From: Amoebidium appalachense
Taxonomy: Eukaryota; Protista; Ichthyosporea
Direction: 5' to 3'
Assembly (NCBI GenBank): GCA_963693365.1
Contig: CAVNZM010000002.1
Coordinates: 10,720,328 to 10,784,327 of the forward strand
DNA: 64,000 nucleotides
Shown here piece after piece: positions 37,894 to 55,159 of this stretch; positions within the stretch are counted from its first letter, which is position 1, and each line of letters starts with the position of its first letter. Under the pieces are notes generated by a model. That model worked only from the letters and a program-made list of their open reading frames with translations, searched no databases and was not told the origin of the DNA. Both the position numbers and the translations under genes were made by a program.

Positions 37894-39047
37894 CATCAGC
37901 AATCTTGTCGAATCCATCCATAAGCCATCTAAGACGTCAGCATCTAATCAAAGTCATCTACATCCCACCCTTTAACCCTATCTACCCCATATCCCATCGA
38001 AAAGATGTCAGGATATTTTCGGACCATTTAAAGACGACTTTCAAGTTATCATAAAGATGTCTGGAAATTTCCTGACATCTTTATATACATTTTTCCTGAC
38101 ATCGTTTTCTACACCTAAACCTAACCACTACCCATCCGTAACCCCACCCAATCCCCACCTTTTCTACCCCTAAAATATAGGTATCGTATGATCCTGCACA
38201 TCAAGACCCTTTTATGTCATCTTTAAGGCCACTTTAAAGAGCTTAAATAAGAAATTAAGGCAACAAACAGACATCTAAACGATATCGTTAAAGGGACATC
38301 ATGTACATTACCTTATTGCAACGAGAGGTGATTTAGAGGTCTTCATGTTGACTTTTCTGCATCTAAAAGGGCACATAAGGAGAACTAAATGTTGCCTTTA
38401 CAGTATCTCGGGGCATCGGAATCCTTATTTCACGATGCCTTTATGTCATCAAACGGATCTGTTGCCGACCATACAAAGATACCTTTTGGATCACTCTACA
38501 TGATCTTTATTTCATGCAGACCGATTCACGACATACACATGTCACCTTTATGTTTACTTTGTGACAACTTGTGCAGCATAATAAGTCGACAAAACGATCA
38601 CTACAAGCAATTTAATATGATCATTATACTGTATTCTAATCGTCCAAAAATCTATATTAAAGCATCATTTTGTGCCCCGGTTGATGCCAAGATGATGTCA
38701 GTTCCCCCCAGTCCCCCCCCCCCCCCCCCCCCTTTCCCTTTCCTCCCCGTGGCTGCACATTGAAGTGTCGTTGACCGTGCTGAACAATCTTTAATTTCTT
38801 ATGACACGTCCCACTGGGACGTGTCTCCACTCTTTACATCTACGAGATGTCCCACTGGGACACCCCTCTACTGTCTCAACTATTCAAAACATTAAAATTC
38901 AAGAAAAGAAACACTATAAATTTATGAGAAAAAAACAAACTAAACAAAGTAAACAAACTTGCAAAATAAAATCCAAAATAATCCCCTACAAAAAAGGGGC
39001 AGTACATTTCTTGGGGGGAAGGGGGAGGGGGGGGGGGAGGTGGGGGG

Positions 39048-42000
39048 CTAAGGGGTGAATTTGGGCTTTTTGTGGGGGCTGGCATGACCCTGTTGGCGCC
39101 TTCTCTTCATCGCCGACCTGGTAAGGGGGGTCTCTCCCTCAGCCTCGTTGAACTCAGCCGGAGAGTCCTCACCTTGAAACTCAGCCGCCTCCTCCTCCAC
39201 CCCCTCCACCTGCTGCACGGCCTCGCTGTCACCCTCCGTGCCGCCCACAGCGACATCCTCGCCCTCCTTGCCGACCTTGGCCGCGTCCGTCTCGTTTTCA
39301 CGTTGGTCCACCTTGGGGTCTGGGGCCTCCTTGTGCAGAGACGCGGCCTCCTTAGCGGCCTGCTCCTCCCGCTCCCGCTCCCGCTCCGCCAGTGCCTCTG
39401 CCTCCCTCTCCGCATCGGCCTCCTCCTGCTGCCTGCGCAACTCCTCCCCGGCCTCCCGCTCGGCTGTCACCATCTGGTCCTTCACGTAGTTGTCGTAGTT
39501 TGAGATGTACTGCAGGTAATGGCGGGCACAGAGTCAGATGCTTTACAGAAGTCAGTCTAGAAAACTTTTTCCAACTATGTGATTGTGTTGTTTGTGTTTT
39601 TTTTTTTTTTACGGGGGGGGGGGGGGGGGGGGTTTGCAGATGTGAACAAAGAAGTCTTTTATAAAACAGAACAGACTAAATGCTAACTAGCTCGAGTGTC
39701 GGCACGCTATAGTGTAGTAAGCCATAATCACACCATAAGGGGGGGGGGGGGGTAGGAATTATAATGAACTTAGCGTAAGTCTCGTGAGCCATGATGAAAC
39801 ACCCCACAGCTCAAGTGTCAGCATCCTATTGCCTAGCCAAAAGGGGAGGGGGGGGGGGGGGGGGGGGGACCCACCAACTTGATGTTGCCTTCGGCCGCAG
39901 CACCGTCATAGTTGGGGTCGTCACATTCGAATTTCACGGGGGTCCACTTGTTGATGAGCTTGTGTTGGTTGGGGTCTCGCAGCGACACCTCGAAGCAGTT
40001 GACGACCAGCCGGAAGAATGCCCTGTGGTCTCTGGCGATATCCTGCCCAGTGCTTCTTTAGTGATCTGTTTTCAAAAGAGGTAAAGTTCGGAAGGAATAC
40101 ACATAAGGAAGAGAAGAGAAGAGACAGATAATGTTGTCGTCATATTGTCTTACTGACATCCAATGGATGTCATTAGGATCATATGACGACAACATTATGG
40201 CCCTTCATGATGTAAGAATGTGACCGTAATTCTCTATGATGATGCTTAAAACTGTCTTTATTCTTGAAATATTCCAAGCATTTGCAGACCTAGGAATATG
40301 CATCAATTTTTTTTCGATTCGATTCGTGGAATGTTCATGGTGGAGGGGAGCGGGGGGGGGGGGGGGGGGGGGGGGGGGGGGGGGAGGGGGAAGAAAGCGT
40401 TATGCAAGTAAATATATACGATGAAAGCAAGTTATTTGGGAAGTTAAACCGGTGATCAGAGGAGAACGTGGAAGGGTGAAAGGGAGTGTGTGTGTGTGTA
40501 TGTGTGTGTACACACGTGTGTTGGTTGAAGAGCGAGTATGTGTGAGTGGGTGGTGGGCAGGAGGGAAGGGGGGGGGGGGGGGGGGGGGGTCCTTTGATGT
40601 AGTCTAGACTCAGAATGTGTTGAAAGTGATTTGTTGGGGACATTACATACCAAGGCAGTCTTGTTGCCAAGGACAAGCCGCACAGCCTTCAATGAGATGC
40701 TGCTGAACAGGCGGGAAAACGGCTGGTACCCGAACGGGTTGCCCGTTTCAGGGTCGACAGAGTACACGCGGCCGCACGGCTGGCCATTCAGCTTGACCTC
40801 ATCCAGGAGGGCCAGCCACAGCGCTGGTCGCTCATCGGCAGTTGGGGCGTAGGCGACCAGCTGTGAATGTGTGTTTGAATGCAGCAAAAGAAAGGAAACA
40901 GAAGCGAGTGGTGGTGAAGCAGGTGGCGGTGGCGTTGTGGGGGGGGGGGGGGGGGAGGGGGGGGGGGGGGTTAGTTAGTCCATGATTGTGTATTACAGAA
41001 GACTGTCAATAAAATATTATATAAATACAATGAAAAGAAAGTATTATTACTACATTACTACTTGAAACAGCTACATATCTCCATCCCTGTACAAATGACG
41101 TTAATGGCATACAAGTAGATTAGAACAAAACAGCTACATATCTCCATCCCTGTACAAATGACGTTAATGGCATACAAGTAGATTAGAACAAAACAGCTAC
41201 ATATCTCCATCCCTGTACAAATGACGTTAATGGCATACAAGTAGATTAGAACAAAGTAACCTGTGTGCTAGGATGCGTGTGAGAAGAGTTAAGCCCATTG
41301 TCATAGAAGGAGTCCGTTGAGTACGGAGGCGGGGGACCCGGGGGGGGGGGGGGGGGGGGGGGGGGGGAATACATCGAGATTGGTCCCAGGTACAACGTAC
41401 CCAGTCCTCAGGAAGTTGCGGACGTGCTGGTGGACATTGGACTTGATGGAGGTGATGCCCGTGCGGATTTTGGAGATATACTTCTGTGCGGGATCGCTAC
41501 GCACACAGTTGCGGATGATGTGGACCCACTTGGCCACGGCCTCCTGATTCAGCTTCGCGCTTGACGTCTCGACTTTCTGAAGAACCTCAACGAACTTTCC
41601 AGCCAGGTCCCCATCGTGGGCGTTGTTGATCTGGGGTGACTCCAGCACAAGGTGCTGGTAGATGTTGTGGGTCTTGGAGGACTTTTCCACATAGTCATTC
41701 TGACGGTGATGGAAAATGTTAGAAAACAAGAATGACGATGTGAATAAATCTTGATGGAGCTATAAATCCTCCATGCTGGAAACGTGCTGTAGCAGTTGCT
41801 TTGAAATGACCAAGTTTGAATAGTTCCTTCAGTTTATCCACTTAGACAGAATAAGGGTGTGGATGTAGTAAGGATGGGTTTAGTGCGGGTAGGGGGGATG
41901 AATGCATTAGGAGGTGGCAGCATGAGGTGGTGGGATGGCAACAATTCCTCCACAAGGATGAGCTTTGATCACAGAGATTGGTGGGGGGAGGGTTGTTTGA

Positions 42001-53459: not shown

Positions 53460-55144
53460 GTCAGAAGTTTAAGTGGACTGCAACCCAACCTTTTAGGTAT
53501 ATATTGACATCCAAATAGTATAGGTTTACTACGAAAAAGATATCAGAACTTATCGTTATAGCATCTTTACATTCTCCTGCTGATATCATTATATACATGT
53601 TGACATCCAAATGGTATAAGTTTATGGCTAAAAAGATATCAGAACGTATCAATATAGCATCTTTACATTCACCTGATGTCCATCTTGCGATGCTTAAAAG
53701 TGCACGGAATCGATCTAGCCTGGGTCCAAAAGATGCCTCGAACCCATCCCAGGAATCTCATGATGACCATCCAAAACACATCAAAGGGACAATTGCAAGA
53801 CACCATAATGTGCATATATATAGATTCATCTTCAGACAACTAACGGCTCCTGAAAAGTGCATACAAGGACCACTTAAAGACCCTAGAGAGATGCTGTGGA
53901 CTCCATTCTAGTATGAGAATTGCATCCAGCAACATTATAGCATCTATATATGCCTATCATGTGCACCGGGTAATCCACAAACCATCTATGACGTCGTGGA
54001 TGTGGACCATCGCAAAGATCACATAGAGACCCTAACTAGATATCATAAAGTGCACATGCTGTGCCTAGAACAGGGATAAATCAGGAATGATGATATAATA
54101 TGCACCAGAAATACACTTAGACATCTGAGGGTACCTAGGGGGTACATATGGATGGGAAAAGGATAGGATATTCAGAGATCTGTAATACCACATCATCAAC
54201 ACCATAGGTCCACATGTAGATGCCTTCAAGTGCACGGAATCGATCGAGCCAGGGTCAAAAAGATGTCACAAACCCATCCCAGAAACCTCATGATGACCAT
54301 CCGAAAGGCATCTAAAAGACCACGTAAAGGCCATATAAGATGCAAATATGGTTTTCCCTCATGACAACTAAATGTTCCTAAAAGGTTCATTAACAGACCA
54401 CTTAAAGACGTCAAAAAGATGCTGTATACCAGGAATAGCGTCCAGCAACATTAAAGCAACCATATATGCCTATCATGTGCACCACCCAATCCACATACCA
54501 TCTATGACGTCGTGGATGAGGTCCATCTACAAGAGCACATAAAGACACTTTGTCGATCATTAAAAGTGCATATGCTGTGCATATAACAGCGAAAAAACAA
54601 TATGGATCGTATAAAATGCACTAAAACTAGTCTTGGACATCATAGGGGACTTAGGGGGTAGAAATGGATGGGAAGAAAATATGATCATATAAAGTGGTCC
54701 ATATAATGTCTATGTGCACCGGAAATAAACTAGAAGTACACTTGGACGTCCTGGAGTACTTAGGGTGTACTTTGGGATGGGTACAAGAAAAGAGCATTTA
54801 ATGTGGTCTTTAGATGGTCCATATCACCACCCAAACCCCACCAAATTGTGTTTGGAAAATTTTGAACATCGGGGCATTTAATATGCATTTAGGATGGGTT
54901 GTAGATCATTTCATGACACCATAGTAGATGCCTTGCGGTGCTGTTCTGGATGATGGATGATATCAAGTCCCCTTTATCCCCTCCTGGACATCATAGATGA
55001 GTTATGGATAGTGGCCATCCAAATTGTTTACGACCCCCACATCCCATCTAGATGTCATCATGTAGGTAGGTTGTGGTGGATGTGTGGGGTGGATATGGTG
55101 GGAGGACCCCCAAAAGGTGTCCTGGATGGGATCCGGATCGCCGA
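53460..55144. repeat. Right subterminal repetitive region of the Plavaka element
   Basis: A ~117-bp tandem duplication (53460-53680), a degenerate ~530-bp-offset direct repeat (starts 53698 and 54228), and recurrent GGACCAYTTAAAGAC and GATGTC/GACATC motifs. Confidence 0.75.
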
Positions 55145-55159
55145 ACAAGATTGCTGATG

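What the first reader, a model, noticed from the sequence alone, without database searches (positions are those of the whole stretch)
37894..55159. 17-kb Plavaka DNA transposon carrying its own KDM4-like histone demethylase: candidate transposon-encoded anti-silencing system
Seen: a cleanly bounded element (15-bp TIRs, 2-bp TSD) holding two divergent transcription units, a fully spliceable Plavaka transposase (+) and a JmjC gene (-). Established: KDM4 enzymes remove H3K9me3/me2 and H3K36me3, and H3K9me3 is the main transposon-silencing mark. Fungal Plavaka/KDZ transposons are known for association with TET/JBP dioxygenases, and plant VANDAL elements encode VANC anti-silencing proteins. Inference: this element carries a histone-mark eraser rather than a DNA-mark eraser, to keep itself expressed or mobile in heterochromatin. 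I do not know of a described TIR-delimited Plavaka element with KDM4 cargo.
Basis: partly seen in the sequence, partly recalled or inferred. Interest (0 to 1): 0.93.

Follow-up and report, generated by a model that had tools for sequence, protein, structure and literature searches.

The report
Transposon with optional histone-demethylase exon
A 17-kb jumping gene that has inserted into another repeat carries an intact-looking exon for a histone-mark eraser (KDM4 type) that a detected splice form leaves out, so the element likely makes the eraser only as a minor product, which may help it escape silencing; no activity has been tested.

Summary
The element is real. It has perfect 15-bp TIRs and a CA target duplication, and a paralogous Gypsy copy in the window holds the empty site. 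The termini and the open 9-exon, 1043-aa transposase fit PlavakaB. The JmjC is KDM4-type: metal, 2OG and zinc ligands are kept, N198 is Ser, and the fold has Z 26.9 to KDM4A. Correction: it is not a stand-alone gene but one intronless exon inside a multi-exon accessory gene. A spliced joint in one run joins exon A straight to exon C and skips it; JmjC lies on a separate unspliced contig. Best reading: a main ~600-aa non-catalytic accessory protein plus a minor JmjC-fused form, predicted to demethylate H3K9/K36 at the element's own copies (0.45). Vestigial cargo is the main rival. Plavaka with chromatin cargo (TET; SET/2OG) and KDM4-likes in giant-virus insertions are published; my searches found no KDM4-bearing DNA transposon. 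This scan earlier noted a mushroom Plavaka with a KDM2/7-type JmjC on other DNA (unchecked notes).

The parts
37892..37893 (.). left target-site duplication (CA)
   Evidence: empty site at 30063-30064 has one CA
37894..37908 (+). left 15-bp TIR, begins CATCA (PlavakaB-type end)
   Evidence: PlavakaB termini from PMC12730594
37909..39040 (.). left subterminal region rich in AGATGY/GACATC motifs (6-7 per kb, under 1 per kb in Gypsy and host DNA); candidate binding sites
   Evidence: binding is inferred
39048..39509 (-). accessory gene last exon G (acidic/coiled tail, basic NLS-like end, stop)
   Evidence: gene model
39875..40042 (-). accessory gene exon F
40651..40860 (-). accessory gene exon E
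41239..41260 (-). possible 22-nt micro-exon; the alternative is a later donor of exon D at 41373 (either keeps the frame)
   Evidence: unresolved
41401..41699 (-). accessory gene exon D (predicted helical, no family hit)
   Evidence: C-to-D join seen as loose ends in X7 and X24
42070..42434 (-). accessory gene exon C, phase-1 acceptor
42907..43852 (-). intronless KDM4-like JmjC exon, 315 codons from its own ATG; phase-1 donor at 42907; GC3 0.52 against 0.74-0.81 in the gene's other exons
44000..44279 (-). accessory gene exon A (basic, NLS-like; phase-1 donor); spliced directly to exon C in run X7
44280..45708 (.). intergenic region between the two divergent genes
   Evidence: sequence
45709..52723 (+). 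Plavaka DDE transposase, 9 exons (45709-46269, 46567-46725, 47023-47387, 47702-47947, 48279-48783, 48948-49102, 49361-49565, 49846-50098, 52041-52723), 1043 aa; D328, D433, CxxC 453-456, H687-x3-H691, E708
50242..51772 (.). 376-bp x 4.1 tandem array (96% matches) in transposase intron 8; 12 GTGCAC sites, a motif also enriched in the right end
52724..55144 (.). right subterminal region rich in AGATGY/GACATC/GTGCAC, with a ~530-bp-period degenerate duplication
55145..55159 (-). right 15-bp TIR, ends TGATG
55160..55161 (.). right target-site duplication (CA)
30063..30064 (.). empty insertion site in the paralogous Gypsy integrase gene (control for the boundaries)

Best explanation
This is a PlavakaB cut-and-paste transposon, likely autonomous and recently active, whose second gene carries a KDM4-type JmjC exon that a detected splice form skips, so the gene likely yields a main non-catalytic protein and a minor JmjC-fused form predicted to remove H3K9 (or H3K36) methyl marks at the element's own copies. 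Shown: boundaries, empty site, open transposase, conserved Fe/2OG/Zn ligands, and the exon A-to-C joint. Inferred: the shared helical C-terminal part binds the repeated AGATGY/GTGCAC motifs or the 376-bp array, as TnpA or VANC do; the JmjC form (823 aa from its own ATG, or longer if a weak phase-1 acceptor at 43773 or 43800 is used) brings the eraser there; loss of H3K9me would weaken silencing, and in a host with UHRF1/DNMT1 would also weaken 5mC upkeep. Low inclusion would limit harm to host chromatin.
For: Empty site and TIR/TSD. All three metal ligands (H171, E173, H256), K188, Y111, the zinc site C213/H219/C286/C288 and Y157/N270 match KDM4; the query matches 27 of 31 columns conserved in at least 90% of the other homologues. 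It keeps 6 of the 7 KDM4A pocket residues listed in PMC9712658. Model pLDDT 81.7; Z 26.9 to KDM4A with 291 residues aligned at rmsd 3.4. A sister protein P0002 (37-39% identical, FastTree support 0.97) keeps 26 of 31 conserved columns but only 48 of 158 others, which points to long-term constraint. Two diverged JmjC copies in X7 (17 and 19 differences over 95-98 nt); in their 30-nt loose-end consensus 6 of 8 differences fall at third codon positions (P about 0.02). No indel is listed in JmjC in the 8 runs laid. A contig covers the whole JmjC exon in the spliced run X7. The donor at 42907 is in phase with exon C and gives an 823-aa open frame. Subterminal motifs and a tandem array exist. CpG depletion shows a methylating host.
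Against: The only listed joint at this locus skips JmjC (contig depth 8889 against 358 for the JmjC contig; the tool warns that contig depth cannot rank parts of a gene). The JmjC contig runs unspliced into exon A, whose frame stops at 43962, so JmjC would need re-initiation or its own start. No JmjC-to-exon-C joint was listed; 1 joint was dropped in the masked stretch 42858-42910 that holds this donor. N198 is Ser (14 of 149 homologues share this; 134 have Asn). The model starts at KDM4A residue 24 and Pfam JmjN is not detected. Histone-tail contacts E169 and D311 (numbering and role recalled) are Pro and His. No DNA-binding domain was found in exons A, C, D, E or F. Within the family 3 of 5 JmjC substitutions change the amino acid, too few to test selection.
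Confidence: 0.45

Rival explanations
1. Vestigial cargo: the JmjC exon worked in an ancestor, but this family has lost its splice acceptor. It now rides in intron 1 and is read only as intron-retaining RNA, while the element depends on the JmjC-less accessory protein.
For: The skip joint dominates and the JmjC contig is unspliced at its 5' end. There is no strong phase-1 AG before the first helix. GC3 is 0.52 against 0.74-0.81. Copies are over 99% identical, so an intact frame says little about recent selection. Kojima 2025 describes passive transfer of TET cargo between transposons.
Against: The 945-nt frame is intact with all catalytic ligands, has its own ATG at about the position of a Met in P0002, and has an in-phase donor. 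The JmjC contig depth (358) is higher than that of the downstream intron contig (96), a weak hint that it is exonic in a minor form.
Confidence: 0.25
2. Active oxygenase with another job: it demethylates a different histone site (such as H3K27me3) or a non-histone lysine, or acts in trans to loosen target chromatin for insertion into repeats, rather than protecting its own copies.
For: The catalytic core is kept but the substrate-facing surface has diverged (about 25% identity to KDM4A). This copy inserted into a CGC-depleted, likely methylated Gypsy element. PMC11244446 suggests that KDM4-likes could promote breaks and integration.
Against: The methyl-lysine pocket is KDM4-like. Fusion to the element's own accessory protein and the motif arrays fit cis targeting better.
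Confidence: 0.2
3. Catalytically weak reader or decoy: N198S and the shortened JmjN leave a domain that binds methyl-lysine and shields it from host readers without turnover.
For: N198S and the missing first JmjN segment.
Against: Fe ligands, K206 and Y132 equivalents are all kept in the query and in P0002 over a long branch; S198 occurs in 14 of 149 homologues.
Confidence: 0.1

Closest known systems
PlavakaB DNA transposons, including TET/JBP-carrying families (Kojima 2025, PMC12730594; passages read)
   Same: CATCA..TGATG ends, 2-bp TSD, Plavaka DDE transposase with C(2)C and H(3-4)H motifs, and a 2OG-oxygenase cargo proposed to counter silencing. The one database hit of transposase exon 3 is from Collybiopsis confluens.
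   Different: The cargo is a KDM4-type histone JmjC, not a TET/JBP DNA dioxygenase, and it is an optional exon of an accessory gene. 'JmjC' occurs 0 times in that paper's main text.
Giant Plavaka elements of Bostrychia and other red algae with PAG1-3 (bioRxiv 10.1101/2025.02.11.637652; passages read; supplements not seen)
   Same: 17.4-19.1 kb size, chromatin-modifying accessory genes, a DNA-binding domain fused to a putative 2OG oxygenase (PAG3), and tandem arrays proposed as binding sites.
   Different: Their cargo is a 6mA methylase plus SET domain and a ParB plus 2OG oxygenase; 'JmjC' occurs 0 times in the main text. Here there is one accessory gene with a KDM4 exon.
KDM4-like JmjC genes in giant endogenous viral elements of Amoebidium (Sarre et al. 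2024, PMC11244446; results parts 1-2 of 3, passages and supplement passages read)
   Same: Divergent KDM4 paralogues without PHD/Tudor, carried by parasitic DNA, with the same anti-heterochromatin hypothesis. That genome also has Plavaka transposases and CGC/GCG-biased methylation, the bias seen in the Gypsy here.
   Different: There the carriers are giant-virus insertions and the Plavaka repeats are intron-poor tyrosine-recombinase clusters. Here a TIR/TSD-bounded DNA transposon carries the JmjC as one intronless exon fused to a C-terminal part of unknown family. Whether they are one clade could not be tested.
VANDAL/VANC and Spm TnpA anti-silencing proteins (PMC5735166, abstract; bioRxiv 10.64898/2026.08.24.746577, passages)
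   Same: A transposon-encoded accessory protein, with motif clusters and tandem repeats in the element's non-coding DNA.
   Different: TnpA-mediated anti-silencing needs the host's DNA demethylases; here a catalytic eraser domain is encoded by the element itself. No homology to VANC or TnpA was shown.
Human KDM4A-D catalytic core
   Same: Fold, Fe/2OG ligands, zinc site and methyl-lysine pocket.
   Different: About 25% identity, N198S, S288A/T289V, starts at about residue 23, no PHD/Tudor.

Membership tests
PlavakaB (CMCT clade) | termini 5'-CATCA..TGATG-3' | tested here: met
   definition
PlavakaB (CMCT clade) | 2- or 3-bp TSD | tested here: met
   CA/CA with an empty site
PlavakaB (CMCT clade) | Plavaka transposase with D, D, E and C(2)C, H(3-4)H motifs | tested here: met
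   Pfam PF18759 74.9 bits against a cut-off of 26.3; D328, D433, C453xxC456, H687xxxH691, E708 picked by motif and by alignment to P0157
PlavakaB (CMCT clade) | transposase falls in the PlavakaB clade | not tested
   no reference set was available in the tools
PlavakaB (CMCT clade) | dispersed copies at different sites | tested here: inconclusive
KDM4/JMJD2 demethylases | Fe(II) triad H188-E190-H276 | tested here: met
   H171, E173, H256
KDM4/JMJD2 demethylases | 2OG C5 ligands Y132 and K206 | tested here: met
   Y111, K188 (roles from PMC9712658)
KDM4/JMJD2 demethylases | pocket residue N198 | tested here: not met
   Ser181; also Ser in P0002 and in 14 of 149 homologues in all
KDM4/JMJD2 demethylases | structural zinc site C234/H240/C306/C308 (role recalled) | tested here: met
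   C213, H219, C286, C288
KDM4/JMJD2 demethylases | methyl-lysine pocket G170, Y177, S196, S/A288, N290, K241 (roles recalled) | tested here: met
   G150, Y157, S179, A268, N270, K220
KDM4/JMJD2 demethylases | complete JmjN domain | tested here: inconclusive
   Pfam JmjN not detected; the model aligns from KDM4A residue 23-24, so the JmjN helix and second strand look present and the first segment absent unless exon A supplies it
KDM4/JMJD2 demethylases | H3K9me2/3 or H3K36me2/3 demethylation | not testable with these tools
   needs an enzyme assay
Amoebidium GEVE KDM4-likes | located in a giant-virus insertion | tested here: not met
   the JmjC lies inside a TIR/TSD-bounded transposon that is inserted in a Gypsy integrase gene
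Amoebidium GEVE KDM4-likes | no PHD/Tudor reader domains | tested here: met
   no such Pfam hit in the exon-bearing frames scanned
Amoebidium GEVE KDM4-likes | same phylogenetic clade | not testable with these tools
   those sequences are not in the supplements held
VANC/TnpA-type anti-silencing system | motif clusters or tandem repeats in the element's non-coding DNA | tested here: met
VANC/TnpA-type anti-silencing system | accessory protein has a sequence-specific DNA-binding domain | tested here: inconclusive
   no hit in Pfam, the Atlas or the protein search; the exon D model is low-confidence (pLDDT 46)
VANC/TnpA-type anti-silencing system | expression lowers repressive marks on cognate copies | not testable with these tools
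   needs ChIP or methylome data

The most novel reading that the evidence does not exclude
A DNA transposon that encodes its own sequence-targeted histone demethylase and switches it on by alternative RNA processing: one accessory gene gives a catalytically silent DNA-binding form by default and a KDM4-fused form on demand. The KDM4-like module may be exchanged among Plavaka families and giant-virus insertions of the same host lineage. With the KDM2/7-type JmjC noted in mushroom Plavakas, this would be a second, independent capture of a histone eraser by this transposon lineage.
Probability: 0.3. Interest if true: 0.9.

Novelty: new variant of a known kind. Interest (0 to 1): 0.7.

Why it matters
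Transposon counter-defence is known mainly through DNA-methylation routes (VANC, TnpA, TET cargo). A mobile element with its own catalytic H3K9/K36 eraser would be a direct histone-level counter-defence. The skipped exon gives a natural with/without comparison in one gene, so the question 'does chromatin-enzyme cargo help a transposon?' becomes testable by enzyme assay, isoform sequencing and ChIP. It also raises the possibility that some intron-containing KDM4-likes reported in giant-virus insertions travel by transposon. A motif-targeted demethylase would be of interest as an epigenome-editing part.

Tried and rejected
No genome was held, so copies could not be counted. The word-indexed homologue search found 0 of 4101 candidates for JmjC and 0 of 59 for exon D. 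The Atlas gave no usable hit for exons D and C. The exon D fold was too poor to search. Viral contigs: no locus was returned for the JmjC (6 pattern matches, 2 passing tblastn, 0 loci; 0 of 76), and the viral structure library gave only distant JmjC/cupin folds (best E 1e-6, at most 22% identity). The metagenome scan gave 1 locus out of 529 pattern matches (L001), an intron-split KDM4-like gene with no transposase evident among its ORFs. The 15-mer TIR scan of viral contigs gave 120 chance matches; 0 of 121 loci matched the element by blastn. No RNA holder was listed in the run search; this is no evidence either way. X24 does not cover exon A or JmjC, and X18 and X20 gave only shallow near-identical pieces, so no dN/dS was possible. 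I laid 8 of the 24 listed runs. Frameshift idea: I considered that an upstream exon at 43922 joins JmjC through a sequencing indel. Rejected, because no indel is listed there; T43849C (N2D) is seen in all 5 runs that cover the site and removes that frame's first stop, but the frame stops again 6 codons later. JmjC-less DNA copies as the source of the skip joint: the joint is not listed in X2, X6, X12 or X13; contigs drop rare variants, so this is not excluded. The IQ-TREE run did not finish. FastTree on 150 rows (P0005 dropped as a spurious repeat; no KDM5 outgroup) supports only query + P0002; deeper nodes are 0.1-0.76, so no donor can be named. The element lacks the Gypsy's CGC depletion (0.70 against 0.25), but so does 61100-64000 (0.92), so I do not count this as a sign of demethylation. 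Iyer et al. 2014 (recalled; the original Plavaka paper) was not held, and Repbase could not be searched; either may mention JmjC cargo. No complex prediction was run.

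
Full report
1. Boundaries. The first and last 15 bases of 37894-55159 are perfect inverted repeats, the only two matches in the window at up to two mismatches, and each is flanked by CA. The element splits the integrase gene of a Gypsy retrotransposon (35485-37893 and 55160-61097). A second, inverted, about 98% identical Gypsy copy at 24460-32502 holds the empty site with one CA. This proves the insertion and its ends. 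The target's LTRs are 99% identical, so the insertion is likely recent. The ends CATCA..TGATG with a 2-bp TSD are those given for PlavakaB by Kojima 2025 (PMC12730594, passages).

2. Transposase. Nine GT-AG exons give 1043 aa without an internal stop. Exon 3 hits Pfam Plavaka at E 8.7e-21. The protein aligns to a Collybiopsis Plavaka at 31% over 331 columns and shows D328, D433, CxxC, H-x3-H and E708. It is likely autonomous.

3. The JmjC. The frame 42908-43852 (-) hits Pfam JmjC and KDM4C best (E 6e-18; KDM5-type E 3e-9 or weaker). The model (pLDDT 81.7) matches KDM4A with TM 0.75 and Z 26.9, 291 residues at rmsd 3.4, starting at KDM4A residue 24. Against 149 homologues, the Fe triad, Y132, K206, Y177, F185, W208, K241, N290 and the zinc site are kept; N198 is Ser (14 of 149 share it), and S288/T289 are Ala/Val. 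Six of the seven KDM4A pocket residues named in PMC9712658 (passages) are kept. The exhaustive search gave 1503 hits at E 0.001 or better, of which 2 were at 1e-30 or better: a tandem-repeat Bemisia model and P0002, an unnamed Logan protein at 39%. P0002 is the supported sister (0.97), shares S198, and keeps 26 of 31 conserved columns against 48 of 158 others. It also has a basic N-terminal stretch before the JmjC; whether it lies in a transposon is unknown.

4. Gene structure, the main correction. The minus unit has exons A, C, D, E, F and G (GC3 0.74-0.81), with JmjC (GC3 0.52) as one intronless block between A and C. A's donor and C's acceptor are both phase 1, so the gene reads with or without JmjC: 601-603 aa skipped, or 823-825 aa from the JmjC ATG. 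I noted these sites before laying run X7. X7 shows a joint from 42434 to 44000 with CT..AC ends (GT..AG on the minus strand), and the C-to-D join appears as loose ends in X7 and in X24, a run of another study. X7 is labelled 'DNA?' by the tool; I read it as RNA because two joins fall on predicted splice sites to the base. The joint's short side is 27 nt and likeness was set to 80, which the tool flags as a risk in metagenomes. The joint is not listed in the four runs. JmjC is covered in X7 by one contig (42911-44029) that runs unspliced into exon A. Depths are 8889 (joint), 4844 (exon C), 358 (JmjC) and 96 (downstream intron); the tool warns that contig depth cannot rank parts of a gene, so these are hints only. 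One joint was dropped in the masked stretch that holds the JmjC donor, so the JmjC-to-C splice is compatible with the data but not shown. On the retained form, exon A's frame stops at 43962 and no ATG lies between that stop and 43852, so translation needs re-initiation or an internal start. The phase-1 acceptors at 43800 and 43773 look weak.

5. Is JmjC a regular, selected part? In DNA run X2 the contigs over exons D and C, JmjC, exon A and transposase exon 1 are all 550-699 deep (JmjC 638), so JmjC is not limited to this copy. Of 24 runs listed, 20 hold part of 42910-45690 and 12 hold at least half of its words, in 5 named studies. Copies differ at only 5 JmjC sites (3 amino-acid changing), too few to test. 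Two contigs in X7 are 80-83% identical to the catalytic core; in their 30-nt consensus, 6 of 8 differences are at third codon positions (P about 0.02). Constraint over long times is therefore supported; constraint on this family's recent branch is not shown.

6. Possible targeting. Both ends are rich in AGATGY/GACATC/AAAGAT (4.5-7 per kb, under 1 per kb in Gypsy and host DNA; AGATGY alone is also 3.4 per kb in the repeat block at 32.5-35.4 kb), and a 376-bp x 4.1 array in intron 8 shares GTGCAC with the right end. This resembles TnpA and VANC target layouts (PMC5735166, abstract; bioRxiv 2026.08.24.746577, passages). No DNA-binding domain could be identified in the accessory protein, so binding is inference.

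7. Host. No tool names it. The DNA is intron-rich and CpG-depleted, and the Gypsy shows CGC/GCG-specific loss (0.25 against 0.82-0.91). This is the bias reported for Amoebidium, which has DNMT1 and UHRF1, Plavaka repeats and an expansion of KDM4-likes in giant-virus insertions (PMC11244446; results parts 1-2 of 3 and supplement passages read). An ichthyosporean-like host is a lead, not a result. That H3K9me3 is the silencing mark in this host was not tested.

8. Novelty. Published: PlavakaB with TET; 17-19 kb red-algal Plavakas with SET/6mA and 2OG-oxygenase genes and tandem arrays (bioRxiv 2025.02.11.637652, passages; supplements not seen); SET cargo in HarbingerS and MuDR (as cited); KDM4-likes in viral insertions with the same hypothesis. 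Searches (listings) found no KDM4- or JmjC-bearing DNA transposon; the library lacks most subscription papers, Iyer 2014 and Repbase. Earlier notes of this scan describe an 18-kb mushroom Plavaka with a KDM2/7-type JmjC, Spt5 and cyclin, a chromovirus with JmjC, and a foldback element with a dead KDM4 piece (unchecked); none matches this sequence. The KDM4 type and the skipped-exon layout are what is new here.

9. Verdict. It works like a cargo-bearing Plavaka anti-silencing system and is a PlavakaB by ends and motifs. The enzyme is KDM4-like but departs from canonical KDM4 at N198 and JmjN. Cis anti-silencing by a minor isoform 0.45, vestigial 0.25, other substrate or trans role 0.2, decoy 0.1. 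New variant of a known kind; interest 0.70.

Noticed in passing
window 24460-32502 (+) and 35485-61097 (-): Two ~98% identical Gypsy copies in inverted orientation about 3 kb apart; a chromodomain-like integrase tail is seen by eye; the second copy is interrupted by the Plavaka.
   Followed up: partly
window 24460-32500: CGC/GCG-specific CpG depletion (o/e 0.25 against 0.82-0.91 for other contexts) with TGC excess, a footprint of context-biased methylation.
   Followed up: partly
window 41065-41255: 63-bp x 3 perfect tandem repeat that duplicates the end of a possible 22-nt micro-exon with its donor and a further acceptor-like site.
   Followed up: partly
window ~49205-49255: Degenerate duplicate of the acceptor and start of transposase exon 7 inside intron 6.
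   Followed up: no
run X24 contig over window 42070-42434: The spliced contig carries +5 and -2 indels in exon C that shift the frame between them and restore it; possibly another expressed copy.
   Followed up: no
run X7 contigs over window 43254-43351: Two diverged (80-83%) KDM4-like paralogue pieces; other families or host genes of the same clade likely exist.
   Followed up: partly
window ~13640-17350 (-): Intron-rich acetyl-CoA-synthetase-like host gene, recognised by eye from ORF translations.
   Followed up: no
window 62176-64000 (+): Long ORFs without Pfam hits and with little CpG depletion, possibly the start of another mobile element.
   Followed up: partly
proteins P0004, P0006, P0009 and locus L001: Other divergent KDM4-likes with C-terminal C2H2-like fingers (P0004 with a weak BED finger hit; P0006 from a thrips); they may be mobile-element-borne in other lineages.
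   Followed up: no
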